Origin: SAR86 cluster bacterium
GTDB lineage: Bacteria > Pseudomonadota > Gammaproteobacteria > Magnimaribacterales > AG-339-G14
NCBI GenBank assembly: GCA_028135785.1
Contig: JAOIHS010000002.1
Span: 6,222 to 70,221 of the forward strand
Direction: 5' to 3'
DNA length: 64,000 nucleotides
The notes beneath the pieces were generated by a model, which was not told where the DNA came from, did no database searches, and saw nothing but the letters and a program-made list of their open reading frames with translations. The position numbers and the translations under genes were made by a program. Below, piece after piece: positions 20,091 through 32,733 of this stretch. The first letter of the stretch is position 1. Every line of letters starts with the position of its first letter.

Positions 20091-21437
20091 ATGAATGTAG
20101 ATATTATTATATTAGCAGCTGGTAAAGGTACCAGAATGCAATCTCCACTCCCCAAGGTTTTACAGACGCTTGGACATAAATCACTGCTTCAACACATAGT
20201 CGATACATGTGCTGATATCAAACAAAGCAAACTTCATATTATTGTTGGCGATCAAAAGGAATTAGTTAAAAAGGTTACTTCAGTACCAAAATCAACCAAT
20301 TGGGTAAATCAAAACAAACAACTTGGTACTGGACATGCGGTGAAGCAGGCTTTGAATCAGCTAAGACCGAATGCTTGTTGTTTAGTGCTTTACGCAGATG
20401 GCCCTTTAGTAACTGCAAATACTCTAAAAAAACTAATTAAGGCAGCTGATAAAGATAATTTAAGTTTGCTTACATTTGAGCCCACTATTTCAAAAGGGCT
20501 TGGAAGAATTATTCGGAATGATAAAAAACAAATTCAAAAAATTATAGAAGAAAAAGATGCCTCTTCTCAAGAAAAACTTATTAAAGAAGTTAATTCAGGA
20601 ATATTAGCCACATCAAGTAAAAACTTTAAAACTTGGCTTCCCAAAATAAAAAACAAGAACGCTTCTAAAGAATACCAATTGACTGACATCATTGCTTTTG
20701 CAGTTAACGATCAAAAGAAAATAAATGCTATTAACTTAGGCAACACAAATGAACTGCTAGCTGCAAATGATGCTTTAGAGCTGCATAACTTAGAAAAAAT
20801 ATATCACAAAAATATAGCTGAAAAGTTTGTTAAAAAAGGCGTAAGGTTTGCAGATATCAACCGAGTTGATTTTCGAGGTGAAGTTGAGATCAAATCGGGA
20901 ACTTTCGTCGATAACAACGTAATTTTTGAGGGGAACGCTCTAATTGGTAAAGACTGTAAAATTGGATCGGGAAGCATCATTAAAAATGCCACTTTAAAAG
21001 ACAATGTTGAAATAGAGCCTTTTACAATCATAGAAAATTCTAAAGTTGGAACCAACGCGAAGATAGGACCTTTTGCCCATGTTGGTCCAGGCACAACCTT
21101 GGAAGACGAAGCAGAAATTGGTAATTTTGTGGAAGTAAAAAGGAGCGTTATTGGAAAGAAAACCAAAGCCAAGCACTTAGCTTATATTGGCGACGGCATA
21201 TTAAGAGATCAAGTAAACGTCGGCGCTGGAACAATTTTTGTCAATTACGATGGTAAAAATAAAAACAAAACAATAGTAGGCACTAAGGCTTTTATCGGCT
21301 CCAATTCTTCTTTAGTAGCTCCTTTAAAAATAGGCAAGAATAGCATGATCGGCGCTGGCTCAGTTGTCACTAGCAATGTTCCGGAAAATAAATTGGCTTT
21401 AGGCAGAAGCAGACAAAAAAATATTAAAAGAAAATAA
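20091..21437 (+). CDS. glmU: Bifunctional GlcNAc-1-P uridyltransferase / GlcN-1-P acetyltransferase GlmU
   Basis: N-terminal LAAGKGTRM, C-terminal left-handed beta-helix hexapeptide repeats. Its stop overlaps the glmS start (TAATG). Confidence 0.95.
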   Translation: MNVDIIILAAGKGTRMQSPLPKVLQTLGHKSLLQHIVDTCADIKQSKLHIIVGDQKELVKKVTSVPKSTNWVNQNKQLGTGHAVKQALNQLRPNACCLVLYADGPLVTANTLKKLIKAADKDNLSLLTFEPTISKGLGRIIRNDKKQIQKIIEEKDASSQEKLIKEVNSGILATSSKNFKTWLPKIKNKNASKEYQLTDIIAFAVNDQKKINAINLGNTNELLAANDALELHNLEKIYHKNIAEKFVKKGVRFADINRVDFRGEVEIKSGTFVDNNVIFEGNALIGKDCKIGSGSIIKNATLKDNVEIEPFTIIENSKVGTNAKIGPFAHVGPGTTLEDEAEIGNFVEVKRSVIGKKTKAKHLAYIGDGILRDQVNVGAGTIFVNYDGKNKNKTIVGTKAFIGSNSSLVAPLKIGKNSMIGAGSVVTSNVPENKLALGRSRQKNIKRK

Positions 21438-23263
21438 TGTGTGGAATTATTGCAGCAGCAACCAATAGAAATGTAGGTAAGCTTTTGGTCCAAGGCCTTC
21501 ATAAAATGGAGTATCGAGGATATGACTCAGCAGGTATTGCCTTACACCAAGAAACCTCAATAGTGCATTTAAGATGTTTAGGAAAAGTAAGGCGCTTAGA
21601 AGAGAAAATGATTGAAGAAAAGCCTAAGGGTAAAGTTGGTATTGCTCATACCAGGTGGGCAACTCATGGCGAGCCCTCTGAAGTAAATGCTCATCCGCAT
21701 TCCTCTAAAGAGAGGGTTTATATCGTACACAATGGCATCATTGAAAACTACATTGAGCTGAAAAAAGAATTAATTGAATACGGATATGCTTTCAGTTCGC
21801 AAACAGATTCAGAACTAATCGCTCATTTACTGGATTATTTTCTAAATCAGAAAAACACCATGATTGATGCCATGCATTCGATTAAAGAAAAAATGCAGGG
21901 TGCTTATGCGATTGCTGCAATTGATCAAGAAGATAGCGATTCTTTTTATCTGGCTAGAAATAATTCACCTCTATTATTAGGAGTAGGTTCAGAAGAGTTA
22001 TTTGCAGCCTCAGATCCTTTGGCTATTTCAGACTTAACGGATAAATTTATTTTTCTTGAAGATGGTGATGTGGTTGAGGCCTCCAGCAAAGCTTATAAAA
22101 TTTACGATAAAAATAAAGAAGAGGTACAAAGAGAGTTAACGCATTTAAATATTTCTGCTCAAGCAACTTCAAAAGGTGAATATAAGCACTTCATGGAAAA
22201 AGAAATATTCGAACAACCTACTGCTATCTTAAATACTATCGATGGCAGAATTGGCGGTGAAGACGTCTTGGAAAATATTTTTGGGGAAGGTTCAAACGAA
22301 TTATTGGCTCAAGTAAAAAGAATTCAGGTTGTTGCTTGCGGTACTAGTTTGCATGCAGGGAGAGTAGCAGCAAATTGGTTTTCTTCTATTTCTCAAGTTC
22401 CTACACAAATAGATTACGCCAGTGAGTATCGATACAAAAACCCATATATTGATAAAAATACTTTGCTAGTGACGATTTCACAGTCAGGCGAAACCGCCGA
22501 TACTTTGAGCGCTTTAAGATACGCTAAGAGTCAAAATTATTTGGGGTCGCTTACTATCTGTAACGTTCCAACTAGTTCTATTGCGCGAGAGTCTGATTAT
22601 GTTTTGCTCACCAATGCTGGACCAGAAATAGGCGTAGCTTCAACTAAGGCCTTCACCACTCAATTAACTGCTTTGATGCTGTTGGCACTTTCTATTGCTA
22701 AAGCCAAAGATATAAATCCAAAACTTAGAACTAGACTGGCTACAGCCCTTAGAGCTTTACCAGAAATAGTATCTCAGTCTTTAGAATTGAGAGGTCAACT
22801 GATAGAGATAGCACCAAGTATCGCCAATAAAGACAATGCACTTTTTCTAGGTAGAGGAATGTTTTACCCAATTGCTAAAGAGGGTGCTTTAAAACTAAAA
22901 GAAATATCTTACATTCATGCGGAAGCCTATCCGGCTGGAGAATTGAAACATGGTCCTTTGGCTTTGATAGATGAGAACATGCCAGTCATCGCGCTAGCTC
23001 CCGAAAGTGACTTTGCTGAAAAATTAATTTCAAATTTAGAAGAAGTAAAAGCGAGGGGTGGAACTTTATATGTGTTTGGTAACGCTGCTGGAGATCTAAG
23101 TATTGATTCCGGGAAACTCATCAACATGCCGGAGTGTGATTTTTTGCTTACGCCAATTTTATACACTGTGCCCTTGCAAATTCTTTCTTACGAGGTTGCT
23201 TTGCTTAGAGGTACAGATATTGATCAACCAAGAAACTTGGCTAAGTCTGTGACGGTGGAGTAG
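21437..23263 (+). CDS. glmS: Glutamine--fructose-6-phosphate aminotransferase GlmS
   Basis: MCGI N-terminal nucleophile, two SIS domains (SQSGETADT), conserved C-terminus NLAKSVTVE-stop. Confidence 0.98.
   Translation: MCGIIAAATNRNVGKLLVQGLHKMEYRGYDSAGIALHQETSIVHLRCLGKVRRLEEKMIEEKPKGKVGIAHTRWATHGEPSEVNAHPHSSKERVYIVHNGIIENYIELKKELIEYGYAFSSQTDSELIAHLLDYFLNQKNTMIDAMHSIKEKMQGAYAIAAIDQEDSDSFYLARNNSPLLLGVGSEELFAASDPLAISDLTDKFIFLEDGDVVEASSKAYKIYDKNKEEVQRELTHLNISAQATSKGEYKHFMEKEIFEQPTAILNTIDGRIGGEDVLENIFGEGSNELLAQVKRIQVVACGTSLHAGRVAANWFSSISQVPTQIDYASEYRYKNPYIDKNTLLVTISQSGETADTLSALRYAKSQNYLGSLTICNVPTSSIARESDYVLLTNAGPEIGVASTKAFTTQLTALMLLALSIAKAKDINPKLRTRLATALRALPEIVSQSLELRGQLIEIAPSIANKDNALFLGRGMFYPIAKEGALKLKEISYIHAEAYPAGELKHGPLALIDENMPVIALAPESDFAEKLISNLEEVKARGGTLYVFGNAAGDLSIDSGKLINMPECDFLLTPILYTVPLQILSYEVALLRGTDIDQPRNLAKSVTVE
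23246..23263 (+). repeat. glmS-terminus copy 0 (resident, functional): TCT GTG ACG GTG GAG TAG = SVTVE-stop
   Basis: Last 18 nt of the glmS ORF. Serves as the reference for copies 1-5. Confidence 0.95.
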
Positions 23264-23274
23264 TTTCGAGTGAC
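23264..23274. repeat. Left arm of a perfect 11-bp inverted repeat (TTTCGAGTGAC) bounding unit 1
   Basis: Exact reverse complement of 24141-24151. Starts immediately after the glmS stop and contains the GTG start (23270) of the unit-1 ORF. Confidence 0.85.
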
Positions 23275-24097
23275 TATTAAAGAAGTAAAAAAATTAGTTA
23301 CTTCATACACTCAAACAAAGAATAAACTAAAAAAACTTGCCCCCACTTTTAATTGGGGAAATCTTCTTGCTGATTATGGTGAGTATGTTTGTATTCAACA
23401 TTATTCTTTGAAACAAGCACCAATTGGAACAAAAGGATTCGATGCAAAAACCAAGAGAAATAAAAGTGTGCAAATCAAGACTGTCAGGGACACTACTAGG
23501 AACATCAGATTCACAAAAGGAGCAGATTACTTGTTGGTTATTGAGGTAGACGAAGATGCTGAATGGAACGAAGTTTATTACGGAAATTTTGCCAAAATTA
23601 TCAAGGCATCTTCCATGACAAAAAATGGCAAATATACTATAGGGATAGAGAAACTTAAGAAAATTTCAAACAATACCTACAAACCAAAGGAAGATATTGA
23701 ATTAACACTCAAAACAGGCAGGAAAATAACTGCTGCCTCTAGAGAAGAACTACATAAAAAACTTACAAAAATGGGGCATAAGTTACCTCGAATAGAAACA
23801 ATTAATAGACGAATAAATGACTTTGATTGGCAATTAGAAAGAGCATTTCAAATAAAGGTTCCTCCCAATTATGCTGAAGTAGAAAATTTAGTAGAAAAAG
23901 AAGGTTATGAGTGGTTTCCTGAAACACCAACTCAAGATAACAGCAGACAACCCTTTGTTTCAGATTTTGAAAAGAGAGTATATATTTCCCAAAAATACTT
24001 TTGCAAAGAGCATGGATTAAAAGAATGGTATGTTAGTGAAAAAAAAGAACTGGGTTGGGATTCAGCAAGGATAATTATGAGTTTTAGGCAGTCATAA
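23270..24097 (+). CDS. Hypothetical protein: N-terminal Mrr-like PD-(D/E)xK nuclease core fused to two C-terminal HTH-like modules of the kind seen in free-standing homing endonucleases
   Basis: 275 aa. Has E38 (GEY), D58 (KGFDA) and Q68-I-K70 (SVQIKT), followed by hydrophobic strand YLLVIEVDED, i.e. a D..QxK signature as in Mrr-cat nucleases. C-terminal half has RIETINRRINDFDWQLERAF and LKEWYVSEKKELGWDSARII (x-I-x-R-R-I..[GD]W..E-x-A type). The GGTGGAG of the glmS end serves as a Shine-Dalgarno-like element 7 nt upstream of the GTG start. Motif-level call only. Confidence 0.5.
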   Translation: MTIKEVKKLVTSYTQTKNKLKKLAPTFNWGNLLADYGEYVCIQHYSLKQAPIGTKGFDAKTKRNKSVQIKTVRDTTRNIRFTKGADYLLVIEVDEDAEWNEVYYGNFAKIIKASSMTKNGKYTIGIEKLKKISNNTYKPKEDIELTLKTGRKITAASREELHKKLTKMGHKLPRIETINRRINDFDWQLERAFQIKVPPNYAEVENLVEKEGYEWFPETPTQDNSRQPFVSDFEKRVYISQKYFCKEHGLKEWYVSEKKELGWDSARIIMSFRQS

Positions 24098-24140
24098 AAA
24101 ATGACTTATAAGTATAATAAAAAGTTAAATGTCTTTATTC

Positions 24141-24151
24141 GTCACTCGAAA
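24141..24151. repeat. Right arm of the perfect 11-bp inverted repeat (GTCACTCGAAA) bounding unit 1
   Basis: Exact reverse complement of 23264-23274. Ends 4 nt before glmS-terminus copy 1. Confidence 0.85.
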
Positions 24152-24155
24152 ACAG

Positions 24156-24173
24156 TCAGTGACAGTGGAGTAA
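24156..24173 (+). repeat. glmS-terminus copy 1: TCA GTG ACA GTG GAG TAA = SVTVE-stop
   Basis: 15/18 identical to copy 0. All 3 differences fall at codon third positions (stop TAG to TAA). A terminator-like hairpin follows. Confidence 0.85.
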
Positions 24174-24217
24174 ATCAACCTCAACTTTCGTTTTAATCCC
24201 GCATTCTGCGGTTGTTT
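24167..24217. repeat. Left arm of an approximately 50-nt imperfect inverted repeat flanking the R-M unit
   Basis: The reverse complement AAACAACCGCAGAATGCGGGATTAAAACGAAAGTTGAGGTTGATTTACTCC aligns with 25989-26036. The distal 25 nt match 22/25, and the AAAC(A)ACCGCAGAA block is shared apart from a 1-nt indel. The middle has small indels. Confidence 0.75.
24199..24217 (+). terminator. Possible intrinsic terminator (CCGCA-TTC-TGCGG followed by TTGTTT), candidate ancestral glmS terminator
   Basis: 5-bp GC-rich stem with a 3-nt loop and a T-rich tail, 26 nt after the stop codon of copy 1. The stem is short. Confidence 0.4.
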
Positions 24218-24339
24218 CGTAAATTAATAAAAAGAATTCCCGGTAAAAATTACCTTAAAAATTTCACCTATTTTTTCGTGTTAGCGGAAGTCATAAGGGG
24301 TTTATAAGAACGATTGCGATCTCTTATGAGTATTAATAA

Positions 24340-24378
24340 GGCAATTGCCTGGAAATTTCAATAATCACAAGTTATAAT
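24340..24378 (+). promoter_or_regulatory. Candidate promoter/operator of the methyltransferase gene
   Basis: 10-bp palindrome GGCAATTGCC (24340-24349) abuts a -35-like TGGAAA (24350-24355). A 17-nt spacer leads to a perfect -10 TATAAT (24373-24378), only 7 nt before the ATG at 24386. No Shine-Dalgarno is present, which suggests a leaderless mRNA. Confidence 0.35.
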
Positions 24379-24385
24379 TAAATCG

Positions 24386-25135
24386 ATGAAATTAAACAAA
24401 ATTTATGAAGAAGATTGCCTTTCAACATTAAAAAAGATGAAAGATGATTCAGTTGATGTTGTTATAACCTCTCCCCCATACAACATGAATCTAAGGATTA
24501 GAAATGGGAAATACTGCTCAAGACAAATCGTTAAAGAAATAAGTACAAAATATACTGAATTCAGCGATAACCTACCAATCGATGAATACAATGAATTTCA
24601 CACAAATGTATTAAAGGAACTCCTAAGAGTATCAAATCTAATTTTCTATAATATTCAAATTGTTACTGGTAGCAAAAGATCAATTTTTAAAATGATAGGT
24701 GAGTTTTCTGAGAATCTAAAAGAGATAATTGTATGGGATAAGGGAAATGGTCAACCAGCAATGCAACAACAAGTTCTTAATAGAAGAACTGAGTTAATAC
24801 TTGTTTTTGAGAAGGACTATCCGATAAGCAGGCAATTTAGAAAGAGAGGAGAATTTAAAAGAGGAACACTTGATGATTTGTGGTTGATAAAAAGAGGAAA
24901 AAAAGTCGGAGGAGAGAATCACGGAGCAGTTTTTCCTGAAGAACTCGTATCAACCATACTTGAAAACTTTTCTAAAGAAGATGACATCATCTATGATCCT
25001 TTTATGGGTACTGGAACAACCGCAGTTGTTGCTAAGCAATTAAATAGAAAATTCATTGGAAGCGAAATAAGTCAACGGTATATAGAAATAGCAGAAGAAA
25101 GACTTAAAAAGACAAATGATCTTTTAAGTAAATAG
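24386..25135 (+). CDS. Type II DNA methyltransferase, beta-class, predicted N4-cytosine specific
   Basis: Motif IV SPPY at residues 29-32 (DVVITSPPYN) lies N-terminal to motif I (DPFMGTGTT), giving the beta-class circular permutation. SPPY rather than DPPY favours N4mC. Adjacent to an MvaI/BcnI-like nuclease. Confidence 0.85.
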   Translation: MKLNKIYEEDCLSTLKKMKDDSVDVVITSPPYNMNLRIRNGKYCSRQIVKEISTKYTEFSDNLPIDEYNEFHTNVLKELLRVSNLIFYNIQIVTGSKRSIFKMIGEFSENLKEIIVWDKGNGQPAMQQQVLNRRTELILVFEKDYPISRQFRKRGEFKRGTLDDLWLIKRGKKVGGENHGAVFPEELVSTILENFSKEDDIIYDPFMGTGTTAVVAKQLNRKFIGSEISQRYIEIAEERLKKTNDLLSK

Positions 25136-25171
25136 ATAGTTTTAGAGAATCATTTATGTCATATTTCTTAT

Positions 25172-25924
25172 ATGGCAGACATAGAAAAAGCAAAACGAGA
25201 ATTTCAAAGAATCAAATCGCTTGGTTATGTCTTAAGCGATAAACCCTTTGCAAAAAAGAATGACGGAGCAATTGGCAATACTTTTGAAACTTTGCTTGGC
25301 GTTGAAGAGAACAACCTAAGAGATGCAGATTTTGAAGGTTGGGAATGCAAAAGTCAGCGCAAACACACCAATTCCGCTTCTAGTTTATTTACAAGGAAAC
25401 CAGACTATCCTCATGGAGGTGATGAATACATGAGGGAGAATTGGGGTATAAAAGATACTGAGTTCCCAAATTTAAAGGTATTTAGAACCTCAATTTATTA
25501 TCATAGGTGGTCGATGGTGTATAACAAATACAAAATGAGATTAAGGATAAATGAACCCAATGAAAGACTTGAAATAATCCTCTGTGATCTTGATGAAAAT
25601 ATTATTGATGAAAGTGTTTATTGGTCATTTAAATCACTAAAAGAAGCAAGTTCAAAACTTAAGAACACATTCGTTGTAAAAGCAGAAGAAAAAACCATTA
25701 ATGAAAAAGTATATTTTAAATATATAGAAGGAACAGTCTATATGAATTTTAATTTTGGTAATCTAATTAAATTAATAAAAGATGGCAAAGCAAGATATGA
25801 CAATAGACTTGGAGTATATCGCACAGGAGACAAGAGAGGAAAAAAACATAATCATGGGGGTGGGATAAGACTAGTTAGTTCAGACTCTTACAAAGATCTC
25901 TTCGATGATTATGAAAGTTTATAG
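25172..25924 (+). CDS. Type II restriction endonuclease, MvaI/BcnI-like
   Basis: 250 aa. The block GYV..(x)..DGAIGNTFETLLGVEENNLRDADFEGWECKS (D..ExK core ECK at 58-60) and the C-terminal HNHGGGIRL..YKDLF resemble, from memory, the BcnI/MvaI family. Lies 36 nt downstream of the methyltransferase. Confidence 0.7.
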   Translation: MADIEKAKREFQRIKSLGYVLSDKPFAKKNDGAIGNTFETLLGVEENNLRDADFEGWECKSQRKHTNSASSLFTRKPDYPHGGDEYMRENWGIKDTEFPNLKVFRTSIYYHRWSMVYNKYKMRLRINEPNERLEIILCDLDENIIDESVYWSFKSLKEASSKLKNTFVVKAEEKTINEKVYFKYIEGTVYMNFNFGNLIKLIKDGKARYDNRLGVYRTGDKRGKKHNHGGGIRLVSSDSYKDLFDDYESL

Positions 25925-25988
25925 TTTTGTATCTAAGGAATATAAAGTAACTTATGAGTAATTTATGCAACCAAACCCCAATACTTTC

Positions 25989-26036
25989 AAACACCGCAGA
26001 AATAGCGGAGAATGAAAGTCGAGGTTCACTTACTCC
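25989..26036. repeat. Right arm of the approximately 50-nt imperfect inverted repeat flanking the R-M unit
   Basis: AAACACCGCAGAAATAGCGGAGAATGAAAGTCGAGGTTCACTTACTCC is an inverted copy of the segment formed by GGAGTAA plus the hairpin region at 24167-24217. Its terminal TTACTCC pairs with the GGAGTAA of copy 2 (7-bp stem, 8-nt loop). Confidence 0.75.
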
Positions 26037-26051
26037 GTTACCGTGGAGTAA
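26034..26051 (+). repeat. glmS-terminus copy 2: TCC GTT ACC GTG GAG TAA = SVTVE-stop
   Basis: 14/18 identical to copy 0. All 4 differences are at third codon positions. Confidence 0.85.
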
Positions 26052-26243
26052 TCAAAGGGGGTGTAGTTTTAGAGTTCACATTAGAGACTTAATCGAACAA
26101 CCTCACCTATCACCAACCCTATTCCAAGAGACAACAAATAATCTTTAACCTTATTGAATGTCTTCATGAAGATAAGGGTTGCGATTTCTATTTATTCTGA
26201 GATTATAGAAAATTAAATTAAACTCATTTTGTAGGGAAAGATT

Positions 26244-26624
26244 ATGATAAAAAAAGAATCTATTTTTTTAGTATTTGTTGCTATTGGTGTATTTTCTGCT
26301 TCTTTGGGATATGGTTTTGTACCAAGCCTAACAATGCCTTTTTTGTATGAAATAGAAATAACCAATACAAATTTATTAAATATTTTAAGAGCAATTTCGG
26401 GTTTATATATAGCCTTAGTAACCTTTTGGATAATAGGTGCATATAACTCTAATCTTCAATTACCTGCTCTATGGAGTTTAACAATCTTCATGACTGGGAT
26501 AGCTTTAGGAAGAGTTGCAAGCATCTTAATTGATGGTTTGCCCAGTCCAATCTTTATTTTTTATCTATTTATAGAAATTATTTCCGGCTTAATAGGTTAC
26601 GCACTTTTGAAGGGGAAATTATGA
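26244..26624 (+). CDS. Small four-TM membrane protein (DUF4345-like)
   Basis: 126 aa, four hydrophobic segments, GRVASILIDGLPSP motif. The family assignment is tentative. Confidence 0.6.
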   Translation: MIKKESIFLVFVAIGVFSASLGYGFVPSLTMPFLYEIEITNTNLLNILRAISGLYIALVTFWIIGAYNSNLQLPALWSLTIFMTGIALGRVASILIDGLPSPIFIFYLFIEIISGLIGYALLKGKL

Positions 26625-26818
26625 AGTTTCTATTAAGCGTGATCGCACTATGCACTTTAATGATTAAAGCCCAACAGAGAATATTAGTTTTAGAAAAGGA
26701 ACTAATCCACAAAAAAAAGAGCAGTAAAGTCATTGGAATTACTAGAAAACCCCCCAATACGAATCATAAACAACTCCGTAACGGTGGAGTAGATTTGGTT
26801 GTACCGGTTTTAAAATAA
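26621..26818 (+). CDS. Small hypothetical protein (65 aa), translationally coupled to the upstream gene
   Basis: ATGA start/stop overlap with 26244-26624. Hydrophobic N-terminus and basic C-terminus. Its 3' end reads through glmS-terminus copy 3 in a different frame. Confidence 0.4.
   Translation: MKFLLSVIALCTLMIKAQQRILVLEKELIHKKKSSKVIGITRKPPNTNHKQLRNGGVDLVVPVLK
26775..26792 (+). repeat. glmS-terminus copy 3: TCC GTA ACG GTG GAG TAG = SVTVE-stop
   Basis: 16/18 identical to copy 0. Both differences are at third codon positions. Confidence 0.85.
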
Positions 26819-26828
26819 GGAGAAAGAT

Positions 26829-26993
26829 ATGAGATTTAGTATTTCAACAATTATAGGAATTTTCCTAGGTGTATCTACATTTATGTTTTATGTCTCCAAT
26901 GTCAGACCAGTGGGTTGGTTTGATTCACTGGTAGGTATGATTTTAGGGGTAATAGTATTTGTGGTAGTTAAGAGATTTAAAGGTTTTAAGTGA
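26829..26993 (+). CDS. Unlisted small membrane protein (54 aa, two TM segments)
   Basis: ATG at 26829 is preceded by AAGGAG (26817-26822, 6-nt spacer). Translation is MRFSISTIIGIFLGVSTFMFYVSNVRPVGWFDSLVGMILGVIVFVVVKRFKGFK. Too short for the ORF track. It is the only ORF in the interval between copies 3 and 4. Confidence 0.55.
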   Translation: MRFSISTIIGIFLGVSTFMFYVSNVRPVGWFDSLVGMILGVIVFVVVKRFKGFK

Positions 26994-27018
26994 AAACAAC
27001 TGTTACAAACAATTCAAC

Positions 27019-27036
27019 TCGGTCACTGTTGAGTAG
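27019..27036 (+). repeat. glmS-terminus copy 4: TCG GTC ACT GTT GAG TAG = SVTVE-stop
   Basis: 14/18 identical to copy 0. All 4 differences are at third codon positions. Lies 7 nt upstream of the msrAB-fusion ATG. Confidence 0.85.
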
Positions 27037-27043
27037 AAATATA

Positions 27044-28330
27044 ATGAAGGTTTTGTCGCTTTTATTGATCTCTTTTTTTAGTATTTTTGCATCAGCTGCG
27101 ATCACCGAAGCAACGATTCACTCTGAGAAAATTATTCTTGGCTCTGGTTGTTTTTGGGGTGCTGAAAAAGGTTATGAATCTCTGCCCGGAGTGATAGATG
27201 CAGTATCGGGTTATGCTGATGGCGATGGGGTGCGACCAACCTACAGAGAGATCACAAAGCCAAAAAATAAATTCAACCCAAACAATCATGCTGAAGTGGT
27301 GGAGGTTACTTATAACAAAAATATTATTTCTACAGAGGGCATTCTCATCCATTACCTAGAATCACATGATCCAACTCAAGTGAATAGACAGGGCAATGAT
27401 ATTGGAACCCAATATAGATCCATAATTCTTTATTCAAACGAAGATCAAAGATTAGCGATTTTGAATACGATTTCTATCTATCAGGCGCTGCTTAAAGATG
27501 CTGGATACGGCAAGATAGCAACTGAAGTAAAGCCAATCCAAGAGTTTTATAAAGCCGAAAAATACCATCAAGACTACATTAAAAAAAATCCAAATGGGTA
27601 TTGTCCAGATCACTCCACAGGAGTGACTTTTAATGAGGTTAAAAAAGGCATTTCAGATCTTAAACCATTTGCTGACCCAGCTTTTGACAATAGTCTTTTA
27701 TTAAAAGGAAAACATATTTTGGTAATAGTTTCAGATGGGTATTGTCCATATTGTGAAAAATTTAAAAAAGATATTACTAGTGAATACAAAGGAACGATTC
27801 CGCTCACCAACAGAACAGCCAGCCAGCTCAATGACTTAAAAATAAAAACACCAAAATGGGCCACACCAACAATTATTTTTATTCAAGACGGAACAGAGGT
27901 ATTTGGTCATCAAGGGTACATGACACCCAAAGAATTTTATAAGGCTCTTGGTAAATTCAAATTGGGTAATTCAGAAGCATATAAGGTAGCTTTTGCAGAT
28001 GGAACTGACGCAAGGTTCTGTAAAGAATACGAAATCTTTAAAAATACTCCTGATGGAGTTTTTATAGACAAGCTTAGTGGAGCGGCGTTATTCGATACAA
28101 AAGATCGATTTAATTCTTCCACAGGCTGGCTATCATTCACAAAGCCAGTATACGATTCTGTTTATACCAAACCTGATAATAGCTATGGGATGAGAAGAAC
28201 AGAAATAAGATCTATAACTTCTGACATTCACCTAGGCCATGTATTTGCTGATGGGCCAAATGGGATGCCAAGGTATTGTATAAACGCCACAGTGTTAGAA
28301 TTTATTAAACGAGCAGATATCAAAATCTAA
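27044..28330 (+). CDS. msrAB: Secreted tri-domain methionine sulfoxide reductase: MsrA - thioredoxin-fold (CPYC) - MsrB
   Basis: Signal peptide MKVLSLLLISFFSIFASAA. MsrA motif GSGCFWG. Middle Trx-fold with CPYC and cis-Pro TPT. C-terminal MsrB motifs GWLSF, HLGHVFADGP, RYCIN. Start moved to the ATG at 27044, because the track start at 26990 would read through copy 4. Confidence 0.85.
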   Translation: MKVLSLLLISFFSIFASAAITEATIHSEKIILGSGCFWGAEKGYESLPGVIDAVSGYADGDGVRPTYREITKPKNKFNPNNHAEVVEVTYNKNIISTEGILIHYLESHDPTQVNRQGNDIGTQYRSIILYSNEDQRLAILNTISIYQALLKDAGYGKIATEVKPIQEFYKAEKYHQDYIKKNPNGYCPDHSTGVTFNEVKKGISDLKPFADPAFDNSLLLKGKHILVIVSDGYCPYCEKFKKDITSEYKGTIPLTNRTASQLNDLKIKTPKWATPTIIFIQDGTEVFGHQGYMTPKEFYKALGKFKLGNSEAYKVAFADGTDARFCKEYEIFKNTPDGVFIDKLSGAALFDTKDRFNSSTGWLSFTKPVYDSVYTKPDNSYGMRRTEIRSITSDIHLGHVFADGPNGMPRYCINATVLEFIKRADIKI

Positions 28331-28388
28331 TAATATCTATCACAGTAGCCTAGTCTATAACCGTTACAGGATAAGAACCCTTTTTAGT

Positions 28389-28745
28389 TTAATTCAAATT
28401 ATATTTGATAATAAACTTAAGATCGCCCTGAGGAGATTCAAAATTGGTTGGCTGAAAAGTATTTGATACATCATCTAAATTACTTGTTTCGAAATTAAAT
28501 TCGAACCTGTTAGGTTTTTCTGAGCTTTGACTAATCAATTCACTAGTTTCTTCTTCTTCCTCAGTATCTCTAGTCAAGAAATATATCAATCCACCAACAA
28601 GTAACAACCCAGCTATAGCGCCTCCGCTTCCGCCTCCGCCATATCCTCCTCCGCCTGAGCTACTTCCACCTCCTCCTCCTCCATAAGCTTGGGTAAAACC
28701 AAGTGGAGCCATGACAAGCATGGTAACAAATAATAATATTTTCAT
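28389..28745 (-). CDS. Secreted/anchored glycine-rich low-complexity protein
   Basis: Signal peptide, a run GGGGGGSSSGGGGYGGGGSGG, one TM (AIAGLLLVGGLIYFL), then an acidic EEEEE tract. The only minus-strand gene in the array. Confidence 0.5.
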   Translation of the reverse strand: MKILLFVTMLVMAPLGFTQAYGGGGGGSSSGGGGYGGGGSGGAIAGLLLVGGLIYFLTRDTEEEEETSELISQSSEKPNRFEFNFETSNLDDVSNTFQPTNFESPQGDLKFIIKYNLN

Positions 28746-28961
28746 ATCTTCCTCTAATAATTTTATTAAAAAAATGTTGAGTGTCTAAAAGTTTTAAATT
28801 TTTAGTTAAAATAAAAAATTAAAGCTGAAGCAAGGCAACATCTTTAGTCTATGCTTAATTTTTTTAAATTCAATGCTTTCTAAAAGAGGTTATAAGCTAA
28901 AAGATATTAATGAACTCTATTTATTTAATCTTCAATCTCATCCAGTTTAGGCTTTAACTAA

Positions 28962-28976
28962 GTAACTGTTGAGTAG
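28962..28976 (+). repeat. glmS-terminus copy 5 (15 nt): GTA ACT GTT GAG TAG = VTVE-stop
   Basis: Ser codon lost, with an in-frame TAA directly upstream. All 3 differences from copy 0 are at third positions. Shares the 14-mer ACTGTTGAGTAGAA with copy 4. Confidence 0.7.
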
Positions 28977-29003
28977 AATCGCAAGTAAGGCTTAAAATAA
29001 GTA

Positions 29004-29390
29004 ATGAAACTAATAATCATAGCCTTATCAATATTTTTATCCTTTAATGCTTTTTCAGAAAAAGTTTATTTTATTAATCTTGAAGATGGAGATGTCTTAA
29101 AATCTCCTTTCCTCATCCAATTCGGTTTGTCGGGCAAGGGCGTTGCTCCTGCTGGAGTTGATATAGATAACACAGGTCATCACCATTTACTCATAAATGT
29201 CGATGAAATAAATTACTCTCTACCTATTCCTTCAACAAATCAGCATCTCCACTTTGGCTTAGGACAAACTGAAACTAATCTCGATCTGCCTCCAGGCAAA
29301 CACAAACTCCAATTGGTACTAGGTAATAAATACCATGTGCCTCTTCAACCATTACTAATCTCAAAGAAAATTGAAGTTGTCATAGAGTAA
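29004..29390 (+). CDS. Periplasmic DUF4399-like protein
   Basis: Signal peptide and the GHHHLLI motif typical of DUF4399. Confidence 0.6.
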   Translation: MKLIIIALSIFLSFNAFSEKVYFINLEDGDVLKSPFLIQFGLSGKGVAPAGVDIDNTGHHHLLINVDEINYSLPIPSTNQHLHFGLGQTETNLDLPPGKHKLQLVLGNKYHVPLQPLLISKKIEVVIE

Positions 29391-29502
29391 CTTTGAGCAA
29401 AGAAACCAAATAGTAAAACTTATTAATCAATAAAGAAGCAATGTTAATATCGTCCAAGAAAACGGAATAATAATAAAATCTATATTAATAAGTACTGGGA
29501 GA

Positions 29503-31911: not shown

Positions 31912-32733
31912 GTGATGGAATTAGAAACAGGAACGATAGATTTAATAGCAAAAAAAGAAAACGGAGTAGGTTATTTAATAATGAATAGACCTGACGCCAG
32001 AAATGCAATGTCTGATGCAATGAATAAAGCTCTACAACAAAAACTTGCAGAGTTTGAATTGGATAACGAAGTTCGGTGTATTGTTCTAACTGGAGCTGGA
32101 AAAGGTTTCTGTGCTGGCGGAGATGTTAAAGGCATGGCAGCTAAAAATGAAAAAGCTGACGAAAACAATACCATTGATAAAGCTATTCATCGACAAAGAG
32201 ATCATCAAAGAGGGACTTCGGGAAAATTATTTAAAATGCCCAAACCGACTATCGCCTCGTTACCTGGTCCAGCAGCAGGAGCAGGACTTTCATATGCGCT
32301 ATCTTGTGATTTAAGAATTATGTCTTCTAGTGCGATCATGACAACCGCTTTTGCCAAGGTAGGTTTTTCAGGAGATTATGGCGGCAGTTATTTTATGACG
32401 CAACTAATAGGTTCGGCGAAAGCCAGAGAGTTATACTTTTTATCGGATAGAGTTTCCGCCGAAGAAGCTCTTGATTTGGGGTTGACTAACTGGGTGACCG
32501 CGCCAGAAGATTTAGAGCAAAGAACTAAAGAAATTGCAGAAAAATTAGCCTCAGGACCTTCGGTAGCTTTCCGATACATGAAAGAAAATTTAAATAGAGC
32601 CATGGCAGGCGATGTTGATGACTGTCTTGACTTAGAAGCAACTCATCATGTTCATTGCGGAGAAACCATGGATCACAAAAATGCTGCAAAGGCATTCATA
32701 GAAAAAAAGACTCCGGAATTTGAAGGAAGATAA
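31912..32733 (+). CDS. Enoyl-CoA hydratase/isomerase family protein
   Basis: Crotonase signatures NRPDARNAM, GAGKGFCAGGD, and oxyanion-hole GPAAGAG. Confidence 0.85.
   Translation: MMELETGTIDLIAKKENGVGYLIMNRPDARNAMSDAMNKALQQKLAEFELDNEVRCIVLTGAGKGFCAGGDVKGMAAKNEKADENNTIDKAIHRQRDHQRGTSGKLFKMPKPTIASLPGPAAGAGLSYALSCDLRIMSSSAIMTTAFAKVGFSGDYGGSYFMTQLIGSAKARELYFLSDRVSAEEALDLGLTNWVTAPEDLEQRTKEIAEKLASGPSVAFRYMKENLNRAMAGDVDDCLDLEATHHVHCGETMDHKNAAKAFIEKKTPEFEGR

What the first reader, a model, noticed from the sequence alone, without database searches (positions are those of the whole stretch)
23246..28976. Five extra copies of the glmS stop-proximal 15-18 nt, every substitution synonymous, punctuate a gene-unit array directly behind glmS
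The resident glmS ends TCT GTG ACG GTG GAG TAG (S V T V E stop, 23246-23263). In the next 5.7 kb, on the same strand and always between genes, I read five more copies:
- 24156-24173: TCA GTG ACA GTG GAG TAA
- 26034-26051: TCC GTT ACC GTG GAG TAA
- 26775-26792: TCC GTA ACG GTG GAG TAG
- 27019-27036: TCG GTC ACT GTT GAG TAG
- 28962-28976: GTA ACT GTT GAG TAG (Ser codon lost)
All four full copies still translate to SVTVE-stop. All 16 differences from the resident copy fall on codon third positions, and none on first or second positions. None of the extra copies ends a present-day ORF of any length.
A protein- or RNA-binding motif would not show 3-nt periodicity in its variation. So each copy most plausibly once served as, or evolved as a mimic of, the functional 3' end of a glmS gene.
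By hand: 2304 of 4^18 18-mers encode SVTVE-stop. That gives about 0.004 expected in both strands of 64 kb under uniform base composition.
The copies partition the region into units: nuclease; R-M pair; two small membrane ORFs; one 54-aa ORF; MsrA-Trx-MsrB plus a Gly-rich protein. The units are nearly all co-oriented with glmS, like a promoter-less cassette array.
Inference: repeated insertion at the glmS terminus (the locus known as attTn7 in other bacteria). Either the elements carry a surrogate glmS end, or recombination imported donor glmS ends together with their downstream cargo. No integrase, transposase, Tn7 genes or integron attC/IntI are present, so the mobilising machinery is unknown or acts in trans.
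Basis: partly seen in the sequence, partly recalled or inferred. Interest (0 to 1): 0.88.

Follow-up and report, generated by a model that had tools for sequence, protein, structure and literature searches.

The report
Serine-recombinase cassette array behind glmS
The repeated copies of the glmS gene end are the attachment-site scars of small mobile DNA cassettes that a large serine recombinase stacks behind glmS in SAR86 and other marine bacteria, a known kind of mechanism in a family I could not find described.

Summary
The window holds six in-frame VTVE-stop 15-mers, all on the + strand between 23249 and 28976, and none elsewhere; 0.14 are expected by chance. The organism is SAR86.

The same arrays follow glmS in 27 of 34 SAR86 species loci and in 120 marine metagenome contigs. 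They never occur on the minus strand.

Each copy is the 22-bp core of a roughly 58-bp recombination site. Every cassette carries its own ~18-bp inverted arms next to the cores. The dyad axis falls on the invariant AC of the Thr codon.

The window has no recombinase, but relatives supply one. A divergent large serine recombinase (LSR, ~568 aa) is usually paired with a small serine recombinase.
- It ends 7–12-kb elements integrated directly behind glmS in four genomes.
- It lies next to an intact palindromic attP on free 6.8-kb and 9.7-kb circles.
- Three nearly identical element states (circle; circle plus one cassette; integrated) map the exchange to the AC dinucleotide.

The copies are therefore an attL, hybrid-site and attR series from serial integration. 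The element-borne half must re-encode T-V-E-stop, which explains the synonymous-only variation. The closest analogues are SCCmec/ECC and tycheposons. This is a new variant of a known kind.

The parts
21437..23263 (+). glmS (608 aa), the integration target. Its last codons are regenerated by the first cassette.
   Evidence: ORF. It is 98% identical in protein to the SAR86 MAG locus L001.
23242..23263 (+). attL-type site: glmS coding left half, central AC at 23252-23253, and right half G GTG GAG TAG inferred to come from cassette 1.
   Evidence: The linkage map shows that wobble positions right of AC travel with the right arm.
23264..24151 (+). Cassette 1, one DUF6998 gene (23270-24097). Own inverted arms: starts TTTCGAGTGAC (23264-23281) and ends GTCACTCGAAA (24134-24151).
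   Evidence: Pfam. Arm complementarity score 16 against a random mean of 6.9. Absent from L001.
24152..24173 (+). Core copy 1 (hybrid site: left arm of cassette 1, right arm of cassette 2). AC at 24162-24163.
24174..26029 (+). Cassette 2, a restriction-modification pair: N6/N4 methylase 24386-25135 and MvaI/BcnI-type endonuclease 25172-25924. It has long conserved end modules (24174-24346 and 25940-26029) that are inverted repeats of each other at their tips.
   Evidence: Pfam. Arm score 17. The end modules are shared at 72-95% identity with about 25 loci holding other cargo.
26030..26051 (+). Core copy 2.
26052..26770 (+). Cassette 3: relic of a small 'Recombinase-domain-only' gene (26069-26173), then a DUF4345 membrane protein (26244-26624). 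The 65-aa ORF 26621-26818 runs through core 3. Arms are poorly matched, so this is probably a decayed or composite unit.
   Evidence: Pfam. tblastn relic, E = 0.002. blastn to L004 and L091. Arm score 7.
26771..26792 (+). Core copy 3. ACTCCGTAACGGTGGAGT is itself an imperfect hairpin.
   Evidence: Flagged as terminator-like.
26793..27014 (+). Cassette 4: one 54-aa membrane ORF (26829-26993). Arms ATTTGGTTGTACCGGTT and AACTGTTACAAACAATT belong to an arm family seen in L003, L031, L012 and L007.
27015..27036 (+). Core copy 4. Homology with the relative L001 resumes just after it.
   Evidence: The orthologous copy in L023 has decayed to CTG.
27037..28954 (.). Distal unit or units. MsrA-Trx-MsrB fusion (27044-28330, +), a possible decayed core near 28366-28377 (CCGTTACAGGATAAG), then a Gly-rich secreted protein (28389-28745, -). 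The segment 28337-28900 is replaced by two other genes in L001.
   Evidence: Pfam. Replacement. Decayed-copy comparison (suggestive only).
28955..28976 (+). Terminal attR-type copy, decaying: Ser codon is TAA here, and the L001 orthologue also has GTT changed to ATT. The conserved backbone (DUF4399 gene, 29004-29390) follows.

Best explanation
The six copies are one attL, four hybrid sites and one attR. They were left by serial site-specific integration of circular elements and cassettes into the last codons of glmS, catalysed by a large serine recombinase (LSR) that this window does not encode.

**Site anatomy.** The full site is about 58 bp. It has a 22-bp core (A.TC.GT.AC.GT.GARTAR) flanked by two ~18-bp arms. 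On the free element (attP) the arms are inverted repeats of each other. Strand exchange occurs at the invariant, non-palindromic AC dinucleotide, which is the first two bases of the Thr codon.

**Why only synonymous changes.** After integration, everything to the right of AC in glmS is element DNA. Only elements whose right half still reads (T)-V-E-stop leave a working glmS. The left half mimics glmS because the same protein must also bind the coding half of attB, whose wobble positions vary between hosts.

**How the array builds.** New arrivals enter at or near the glmS-proximal site and push older units distally, where the copies decay. Most units have lost the recombinase, or never had it. 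They persist as 0.1-8-kb cassettes (median 0.6 kb) with matched arms, so they may still be movable in trans.

**Shown:** site anatomy, presence/absence of units between relatives, linkage of the LSR to the site, free circles carrying attP, and the exchange interval.

**Inferred:** catalysis by this LSR, insertion into an already occupied site, and mobilisation of recombinase-less cassettes in trans.
For: **1. Generality.**
- 61 extra copies lie within 10 kb downstream of glmS in 27 of 34 SAR86 species loci. None is on the minus strand.
- 120 marine metagenome contigs show the same pattern, including arrays behind glmS genes only 42-52% identical to this one.

**2. Units are gained and lost.**
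- L001 lacks window 23264-27042. Homology stops at the glmS stop codon and resumes 6 nt after copy 4.
- The same 128-aa cassette sits at array position 1, 2, 3 or 4 in different genomes.

**3. Arms.**
- A cassette's first 40 nt are complementary to its last 40 nt: mean score 11.3, against 6.9 for random pairs and 7.5 for the two arms at one boundary.
- Covariation is in strict register i+j=7: 1014 Watson-Crick pairs against 735 expected, with no signal at shifts 6 or 8. It is confined to positions 15-32 paired with -8 to -25.

**4. Exchange point.**
- Wobble positions 8, 11 and 14 travel with the right arm; -7, -6, -1 and 2 travel with the left arm.
- Natural before/after series at 99.75-100% identity:
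  - L220 attP: TCAGTCGGTA|AC|TGTCGAGTAA.
  - L219, the same circle plus an acetyltransferase cassette: TCAGTCGGTA|AC|CGTGGAGTAA and TCACTCAGTG|AC|TGTCGAGTAA.
  - L218, integrated: TCACTCAGTG|AC|TGTTGAATAA plus the same flank as behind glmS in L004.
- The partner sites differ at positions 2 and 5, so only AC can be the overlap. That fits the 2-bp stagger of serine recombinases and not a 6-8-bp tyrosine-recombinase overlap.

**5. Recombinase.**
- L186 carries a 581-aa protein with Resolvase and Recombinase domains ending 61 nt before a core.
- Homologues on long contigs lie 10 kb or less downstream of glmS in 4 of the 4 loci where glmS is visible (L211, L212, L216, L217). Each ends an element bounded by two cores and matched arms.
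- The arm family tracks the LSR clade.
- An LSR C-terminal relic lies at the end of a cassette in L012.

**6. Free circles.** L222 has a 30-nt terminal repeat. L223 and L225 are 100%-identical circular permutations of it. Its single core has arms paired at 19 of 21 positions and there is no glmS on it.

**7. Polarity of decay.** Four of six decayed copies are the distal-most in their arrays. The window's terminal copy is decayed here and in L001.
Against: - No recombinase is present in the window or within 10 kb of glmS in any of the 33 SAR86 species-representative loci. Activity in this genome is therefore unproven, and the array could be a fossil.
- Well-studied LSRs recombine only attP with attB. 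Insertion into an occupied site (attL), or capture at an attP as in L219, needs relaxed partner choice, which is known for SCC Ccr recombinases (my recollection, not read here) but untested here.
- I found no circular form of a recombinase-less mini-cassette.
- The arm covariation could also reflect DNA folding rather than protein half-site recognition. The arm-to-clade correspondence rests on only six elements.
- Position 5 is only weakly linked to either side in the population-level map.
- The role of the conserved small serine recombinase is unknown. L221 also carries a short Phage_integrase ORF beside the LSR.
Confidence: 0.8

Rival explanations
1. An integron-like or CTX-like mechanism. 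The cassette junction folds as single-stranded DNA into a hairpin, with the arms as stem and the conserved core near the apex. A structure-specific recombinase recognises it, and base pairing rather than protein half-site recognition maintains the arm covariation.
For: - Compensatory arm variation occurs in strict register.
- The core itself continues the stem on the top strand: ACTC/GAGT plus two G-T pairs.
- Cassettes are small, mostly single-gene, co-oriented and lack a recombinase.
Against: - No IntI-type or other tyrosine recombinase was found in the arrays examined (Pfam family census, top 25 families listed; per-protein scans). The one exception is a 196-aa Phage_integrase ORF beside the LSR in L221.
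- The exchange point is at the apex or dyad centre, not in a stem box.
- Wobble positions inside the core do not covary.
- Arm families track LSR clades.
- An LSR sits next to every intact palindromic site found.
- Dyad symmetry around a central dinucleotide is the ordinary architecture of serine-recombinase sites (PMC6222049).
Confidence: 0.07
2. Homologous recombination or transformation imported foreign glmS 3' ends together with their downstream genes, so each copy is a displaced former glmS terminus.
For: - All window copies still translate to (S)VTVE-stop.
- The right halves do become functional glmS ends after insertion.
Against: - Similarity to glmS ends at position -5.
- The preceding Lys codon is mostly AAC/ACT-type, and the Ala-Lys codons (GCN AAR) occur upstream of none of 61 extra copies.
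- Instead the upstream flank is the inverted repeat of the cassette's own start.
- Free circles carry the mimic without any glmS.
Confidence: 0.03
3. A tyrosine recombinase (phage-integrase type, as in tycheposons or tRNA islands) is the catalyst, with the core as its identity segment.
For: - Regenerating a target gene's 3' end through an identity segment is typical of tyrosine integrases.
- Serial integration with displaced fragments is documented for tycheposons (10.1101/2020.12.28.424599).
- One 196-aa Phage_integrase ORF lies next to the LSR in L221.
Against: - Partner sites differ at positions 2 and 5 on either side of AC, which leaves no 6-8-bp identical overlap.
- No tyrosine-recombinase family appears among the families listed for the arrays (top 25 of each census), and the per-protein scans found none.
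- The LSR is the gene consistently adjacent to the site.
Confidence: 0.04
4. Tn7-like or CRISPR-associated transposons inserted at attTn7 behind glmS.
For: The locus is the classical attTn7, and TnsD reads the same conserved non-wobble positions (PMC2918618).
Against: - Tn7 inserts about 25 bp downstream of its binding site and does not duplicate the glmS end.
- No TnsA/B/C/D-like family is among the families listed for the arrays (top 25 of each census).
- Units start immediately after the stop codon.
Confidence: 0.01

Closest known systems
Staphylococcal and enterococcal cassette chromosomes (SCCmec, ECC) moved by the CcrA/CcrB large serine recombinases
   Same: - Integration into the 3' end of a conserved housekeeping gene, which stays intact.
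- About 50-bp att repeats with a conserved centre and imperfect inverted repeats that give dyad symmetry.
- A circular intermediate.
- Composite islands with several att copies and highly variable cargo (PMC6222049). That some SCC units lack recombinase genes is from my own knowledge.
   Different: - The target is glmS, not rlmH.
- One divergent LSR is usually paired with a small resolvase/invertase-type recombinase, rather than two LSRs.
- The hosts are streamlined marine Gram-negative bacteria.
- Units are far smaller (median 0.6 kb against 20-80 kb) and often hold a single gene.
- The core is degenerate at wobble positions rather than a fixed sequence.
- Homology of this LSR to Ccr proteins was not tested.
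Tycheposons of Prochlorococcus
   Same: - Marine streamlined hosts.
- Repeated integration at one site, with newcomers pushing older elements into the island.
- Partial target copies and degraded elements scattered along the island.
- A few tycheposons use large serine recombinases (10.1101/2020.12.28.424599).
   Different: Tycheposons target tRNA/tmRNA genes, and 910 of 937 use tyrosine recombinases. Here the target is a protein-coding terminus and the site has serine-recombinase architecture.
Phage large serine integrases (phiC31, Bxb1, A118/LI, TP901-1 type)
   Same: - Domain set Resolvase plus Recombinase.
- attP next to the integrase gene.
- About 25-29-bp inverted half-sites around a non-palindromic central dinucleotide (established knowledge of the family).
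   Different: - Only 24-27% identity to phage integrases in GenBank phages, and no PDB sequence match.
- attP and attB share a 20-nt core, whereas typical phage LSR sites share little beyond the dinucleotide.
- Apparent use of occupied and attP-type sites as targets (L219; the arrays).
Integrons
   Same: - Array of small, mostly co-oriented, mostly single-gene cassettes separated by recombination sites.
- Cargo rich in defence and accessory genes.
- Cassettes lack their own recombinase.
   Different: - No IntI, attI or attC.
- The conserved part of the site is central and the variable part lateral, the reverse of attC.
- Exchange is at the dyad centre.
- The associated enzyme is a serine recombinase.
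Tn7 / attTn7
   Same: The same chromosomal landmark, and the same logic of reading only non-wobble positions of the glmS terminus (PMC2918618).
   Different: Tn7 moves by transposition, about 25 bp downstream, without copying the glmS end. No Tns genes are present here.

Membership tests
Large-serine-recombinase integrative element (att-site series) | Gene for a protein with an N-terminal Resolvase catalytic domain plus a Recombinase domain, next to the attachment site | tested here: met
   Met in relatives only. L186, L211, L212, L216, L217, L218-L220 and L222-L229 all have the LSR stop 40-60 nt before a core. Not met in the window itself: tblastn with three LSRs and two small recombinases finds nothing at E up to 1.
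Large-serine-recombinase integrative element (att-site series) | Site with dyad symmetry around a non-palindromic central dinucleotide where exchange occurs | tested here: met
   The dyad axis lies between core positions 3 and 4 (AC). The exchange is bracketed by positions 2 and 5 in the L220/L219/L218 series and in the population linkage map.
Large-serine-recombinase integrative element (att-site series) | Circular form carrying an intact attP, and integrated form flanked by attL and attR hybrids | tested here: met
   Circles: L222 (30-nt terminal repeat; permuted copies L223 and L225) and L220. Integrated forms with matched arms split between two cores: L211, L212, L216, L217.
Large-serine-recombinase integrative element (att-site series) | Demonstrated catalysis of attP x attB recombination by the enzyme | not testable with these tools
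   Needs a recombination assay.
SCC-type cassette chromosome | Integration in the 3' end of a conserved gene, with att repeats marking several tandem units, some without recombinase | tested here: met
   comparison text in PMC6222049.
SCC-type cassette chromosome | ccrAB or ccrC recombinases and rlmH (orfX) as target, with TATCATAA core | tested here: not met
   The target is glmS and the core is A.TC.GT.AC.GT.GARTAR. The partner is a 196-203-aa resolvase-type protein. So this works like SCC but is not a member.
Integron | intI tyrosine recombinase with adjacent attI, and attC sites (RYYYAAC ... GTTRRRY) at cassette 3' ends | tested here: not met
   No tyrosine recombinase in the per-protein Pfam scans or among the families listed by the two censuses of 105 + 148 array proteins (top 25 of each). 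The site architecture differs. Rfam has no hit.
Tn7-like element at attTn7 | TnsABC+D genes, insertion about 25 bp downstream of the glmS stop, 5-bp duplication, Tn7 end repeats | tested here: not met
   Units abut the stop codon. No Tns families appear among the families listed (top 25 of each census).
Tycheposon | tRNA/tmRNA target and, mostly, a tyrosine recombinase with replication module | tested here: not met
   No tRNA in the window. The target is glmS and the enzyme is an LSR. The behaviour (serial stacking) is the same.

The most novel reading that the evidence does not exclude
This may be a serine-recombinase counterpart of the integron: a dedicated, community-wide gene-sharing platform in streamlined marine bacteria. 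Recombinase-less single-gene cassettes with palindromic attP sites would be excised, exchanged and re-inserted in trans by rare LSR-bearing 'helper' circles. They would insert behind glmS, and even into the helpers' own attP, as in L219. They would be expressed by read-through from glmS. The abundant Recombinase-domain-only proteins would act as site-binding regulators.
Probability: 0.3. Interest if true: 0.85.

Novelty: new variant of a known kind. Interest (0 to 1): 0.68.

Why it matters
- **Ecology.** SAR86 is one of the most abundant heterotrophic clades of the surface ocean and has a streamlined genome. The sources of its flexible genes are poorly understood. This locus is a precise, sequence-defined entry point for foreign genes, here restriction-modification, oxidative-repair and membrane proteins. 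It is shared across SAR86 and reaches other marine lineages (glmS only 42-52% identical; GC 0.30-0.52).
- **Mechanism.** It gives a concrete, testable machinery: a divergent LSR, its attP, the AC crossover and free circles.
- **Population genomics.** The core motif can be used directly to delimit cassettes in metagenomes.
- **Biotechnology (speculative).** This is a natural LSR family whose attB lies in one of the most conserved coding sequences known, the glmS/GFPT terminus that Tn7 also uses (PMC2918618). It reads only non-wobble positions. If active, it could be a broad-host 'landing-pad-free' integrase.

Tried and rejected
1. **ssDNA hairpin / attC-like reading.** It was attractive because of the arm covariation. 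I set it aside after finding that core wobble positions do not covary, that exchange is at the dyad centre and that arms track LSR clades.
2. **'Every cassette ORF spans the site and borrows a start codon from the upstream cassette.'** Frame statistics show long read-through ORFs at only 19 of 217 sites, mostly one gene family. Several apparent ATGs were the ends of upstream ORFs.
3. **Viral contig scan** for ACTCNGTNACNGTNGAGTA. The 51 hits are about the number I would expect by chance (my estimate, not computed). The one recurrent hit lies in a giant repetitive phage gene and has no arms.
4. **Exact-sequence look-up of the window's GlmS.** Not on record.
5. **Pfam hunt inside the arrays of 33 genomes.** It found no recombinase. 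The two 'Recombinase' hits were 64-89-aa domain-only proteins.
6. **Circular forms of recombinase-less mini-cassettes** among 120 contigs. None found.
7. **Rfam** on 23000-29500: no hit. The promoter scan was not above shuffles.
8. **PDB sequence search** with the LSR: no hit.
9. **Literature.** No paper describing SAR86 glmS islands or an LSR targeting glmS was found in the held library. Absence there is not proof of absence.

Full report
**1. The observation**

The sequence is as described. glmS (21437-23263) ends TCT GTG ACG GTG GAG TAG. Five more copies of the last 15-18 nt lie on the same strand at 24156, 26034, 26775, 27019 and 28962. No other 12-mer encoding T-V-E-stop exists on either strand of the 64 kb.

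The wobble-degenerate pattern, with one mismatch allowed, gives 6 hits against 0.14 expected from shuffles. A codon-blind Hamming search returns the same copies. Every difference is at a third position, except the TCT to TAA change in the last copy. The single chance hit, at 32108, differs at first and second positions. Similarity between copies is limited to about 20 nt.

**2. Organism and generality**

GlmS is 98% identical to that of a SAR86 MAG. Thirty-three SAR86 species genomes gave the locus with 10-kb flanks.
- Twenty-seven of 34 loci, counting the window, carry 1-5 extra GTNACNGTNGARTAR copies within 10 kb downstream of glmS (most within about 5 kb): 61 copies in all, every one on the + strand.
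- Non-SAR86 loci fetched in the same scan have none.
- A metagenome scan with a left-arm-plus-core pattern hit its 120-contig limit. All contigs are marine. Many have 2-7 copies, always co-oriented. Some lie behind glmS genes only 42-52% identical to this one, at GC up to 0.52.

**3. Anatomy of the site**

In the 61 extra copies three further positions are conserved that the search did not select for: A at -5 (59/61), T at -3 (59/61) and C at -2 (51/61). Positions -6 and -4 are not conserved. The Lys codon is not kept, and the Ala-Lys codons of glmS never precede a copy. So the copies are not displaced glmS ends.

Each cassette begins and ends with sequences that are inverted repeats of each other and abut the cores.
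- Window cassette 1 starts TTTCGAGTGAC and ends GTCACTCGAAA.
- Window cassette 2 has about 38-nt arms.

Own-end complementarity is 11.3 on average, against 6.9 for random pairs and 7.5 for the two arms that meet at one boundary. The pairing is in strict register: position j after one core pairs with 7-j before the next. That gives 1014 Watson-Crick pairs against 735 expected, and nothing at register 6 or 8. It covers positions 15-32 and -8 to -25 but not the wobble positions of the core.

The dyad axis therefore lies between the A and C of the Thr codon. The core is itself partly symmetric about that axis (ACTC/GAGT).

**4. Exchange point**

Sites that share a right arm but not a left arm share wobble positions 8, 11 and 14, but not 2, -1 or -4. 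Sites that share a left arm share -7, -6, -1 and 2, but not 8.

A cleaner mapping came later from three states of one element that are 99.75-100% identical over their shared segments.

| State | Site sequence |
|---|---|
| L220, circle, attP | TCAGTCGGTA\|AC\|TGTCGAGTAA |
| L219, same circle plus a 570-bp acetyltransferase cassette, site A | TCAGTCGGTA\|AC\|CGTGGAGTAA |
| L219, site B | TCACTCAGTG\|AC\|TGTCGAGTAA |
| L218, integrated | TCACTCAGTG\|AC\|TGTTGAATAA, followed by the flank found behind glmS in L004 |

The partners differ at positions 2 and 5. The exchange is thus confined to the AC dinucleotide.

**5. Units come and go**

L001 is about 90% identical to the window in DNA. It aligns up to the glmS stop codon, lacks 23264-27042 entirely, and resumes six bases after copy 4, so msrAB follows glmS there. 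The segment 28337-28900 is replaced by two other genes, and homology resumes about 60 nt before copy 5.

A 128-aa membrane-protein cassette with arms ATAGAACTGTCCAC occupies array position 1, 2, 3 or 4 in eight genomes. Backbone genes downstream are conserved but sit at offsets from 0.9 to 6.2 kb. The intervals between copies have a median of 626 bp and range from 85 to 7803 bp. Ninety of 105 in-array ORFs are on the + strand.

**6. Cargo**

- The window holds a DUF6998 protein, an N6/N4 methylase with an MvaI/BcnI-type endonuclease, a DUF4345 protein, a 54-aa membrane ORF, an MsrA-Trx-MsrB fusion and a Gly-rich secreted protein.
- Relatives hold more restriction-modification systems, SAD/SRA-HNH, GIY-YIG, T5orf172, MORN, sulfotransferases, a desaturase with TetR, and other genes. 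Seventy of 105 ORFs are singletons.
- Pfam found no integrase or transposase in the arrays of the 33 species genomes (per-protein scans plus a census that lists only the top 25 families).

**7. The recombinase**

Screening 148 proteins from the metagenome contigs gave two Resolvase hits, both on L186.
- The first is a 581-aa protein with Resolvase and Recombinase domains. Its stop lies 61 nt before a core with typical arms.
- One cassette further on is a 203-aa resolvase/invertase-type protein.

The LSR has more than 160 homologues of about 568 aa in marine data. Where long contigs exist, the gene lies 10 kb or less downstream of glmS in four of four cases. It is the last gene of a 5.5-11.5-kb element bounded by the glmS core and a second core. 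The arms of the two sites are inverted repeats of each other, for example TTTTGAACAGAGAATAAGA twice in L211.

A 196-203-aa small serine recombinase accompanies the LSR in most elements; in L218 and L221 none is called next to it. Arm sequence follows LSR clade:
- L186 and L211 (72% identical) use GAACAG(A/T)GA(A/T)T.
- L212 and L216 (90% identical) use AACTGATGAAATAA.
- L217 and L213 use variants of the latter.

That correspondence explains the arm covariation as co-evolution of half-sites with their binding protein.

An LSR C-terminal relic ends a cassette in L012. The window has a relic of the small domain-only gene just after copy 2, and no LSR.

**8. Free circles**

One LSR (P0133) is found on at least 24 contigs from one sample series.
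- L222 has a 30-nt terminal repeat.
- L223 and L225 are 100%-identical circular permutations of L222.
- The 6.8-kb molecule has one core with arms paired at 19 of 21 positions, and no glmS.

A second element (P0165) behaves the same way and supplied the three-state series above. Some of these elements also carry a weak match to a rolling-circle Rep family: P0165's and L221 in the precomputed Pfam hits, and the integrated L211 relative below threshold.

**9. Why only synonymous changes**

With exchange at AC, the right half of attP (N GTN GAR TAR) becomes the end of glmS. Elements that break it damage an enzyme whose C-terminus is almost invariant (PMC2918618).

The left half never enters glmS. 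Accordingly, a search keyed only on the right half finds 13 of 74 copies without Val at that place, including six with GCN. The left half keeps the 3-nt rhythm because the recombinase must also bind the coding half of attB, where only non-wobble positions are constant. This is the logic shown experimentally for TnsD.

Internal copies are free to decay. Six copies with first- or second-position changes were found. Four of them are the most distal in their arrays, and one is the orthologue of window copy 4 in L023.

**10. Comparison with known systems**

The behaviour matches the SCCmec/ECC cassette chromosomes in these respects (PMC6222049; that some SCC units lack recombinase genes is from my own knowledge):
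- a large serine recombinase;
- integration at the 3' end of a housekeeping gene;
- about 50-bp dyad-symmetric att repeats;
- a circular intermediate;
- multiple att copies.

It also matches the serial stacking described for tycheposons.

It is not a member of either. The target, core, partner protein, host range and unit size all differ. The LSR is only 24-27% identical to known phage integrases and has no PDB sequence match. Integron and Tn7 membership fail on their defining features. Searches of the held literature found no description of this system.

**11. What remains inferred**

- That this LSR catalyses the reaction.
- That it can use an occupied site, or an attP, as target.
- That recombinase-less cassettes still move.
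- That the window's array is active rather than a fossil.

Noticed in passing
L032 11809-12162, L002, L033, L217 6346-6624, L186 1873-2238 and many metagenome contigs; relic in window 26069-26173: A very common cassette gene encodes a ~95-115-aa protein that consists only of the 'Recombinase' DNA-binding domain of large serine recombinases (PF07508). It has more than 327 standalone homologues of 107-176 aa. It is always the first gene after a core and has no canonical start codon of its own. Its reading frame is open through the core. Its function (site-binding regulator or directionality factor?) and its true start are unexplained.
   Followed up: partly
L211 9408-10004, L216 9411-10001, L217 9405-10004, L222 2380-2988, L186 2245-2853: A 196-203-aa resolvase/DNA-invertase-type serine recombinase (Resolvase + HTH_7) accompanies the LSR, often with overlapping stop and start codons. 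This two-recombinase module has an unknown division of labour.
   Followed up: partly
window 24174-24346 and 25940-26029: The ends of the restriction-modification cassette are non-coding modules of about 170 nt and 90 nt. They are conserved at 72-95% identity in about 25 other loci that hold different cargo. They include a hairpin, CCGCATTCTGCGG, followed by T's. There is no Rfam match. They look like a reusable cassette 'chassis'.
   Followed up: partly
window 26990-28330: A GTG at 26990, in the 3' end of cassette 4, opens a frame that runs through core copy 4 and joins msrAB in frame (MKTTVTNNSTRSLLSRNI-MKVLS...). The likelier start is the ATG at 27044. Homologous left arms in other genomes encode MKKTGTTNST.... 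Probably incidental.
   Followed up: partly
window 26771-26792: Core copy 3 (ACTCCGTAACGGTGGAGT followed by a T-rich stretch) is scored as an intrinsic-terminator-like hairpin. Cores with C at -4 could also act as RNA hairpins between cassettes.
   Followed up: no
L214 ~2640 and 4009; L213, L215 after the LSR stop: In an element whose LSR a source names as alphaproteobacterial (L213-L215, GC 0.43-0.52), the core after the LSR reads AAGTCAACCACTGTGGAGTAG, with Thr in place of the first Val. L214 carries a second, longer glmS-like end (NDQPRNLVITVTVE-stop) 1.4 kb further on with an identical right flank. An adhesin-E cassette is bracketed between the two.
   Followed up: no
L219 7789-8322, L220 588-1121, L221 617-1084, L211 8460-8954: The LSR elements carry a ~165-177-aa ORF with weak similarity to the rolling-circle replication protein family REP_ORF2-G2P. 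The free circles may replicate autonomously.
   Followed up: no
L221 2195-2785: A 196-aa ORF with a Phage_integrase (tyrosine recombinase) hit lies just upstream of the LSR in one element.
   Followed up: no
L186 1-80: The LSR gene in L186 starts with ATGAACAGTGATTTA, which is a right-arm motif. It is preceded by a left-arm motif. Between the two, where a core would be, lies a 44-nt insert with TTTACT..TATAAT..GGAG. This looks like a site remodelled into a promoter.
   Followed up: no
L004 11813, L017 11813, L005 11813, L021 12061, L218 4598: A recurrent flank, GAATAA followed by (a/g)gaaa..tttctcggttggtca, follows glmS or the last copy in several genomes. It is the chromosomal side of the L218 junction. 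It is probably the ancestral right half (B') of attB.
   Followed up: partly
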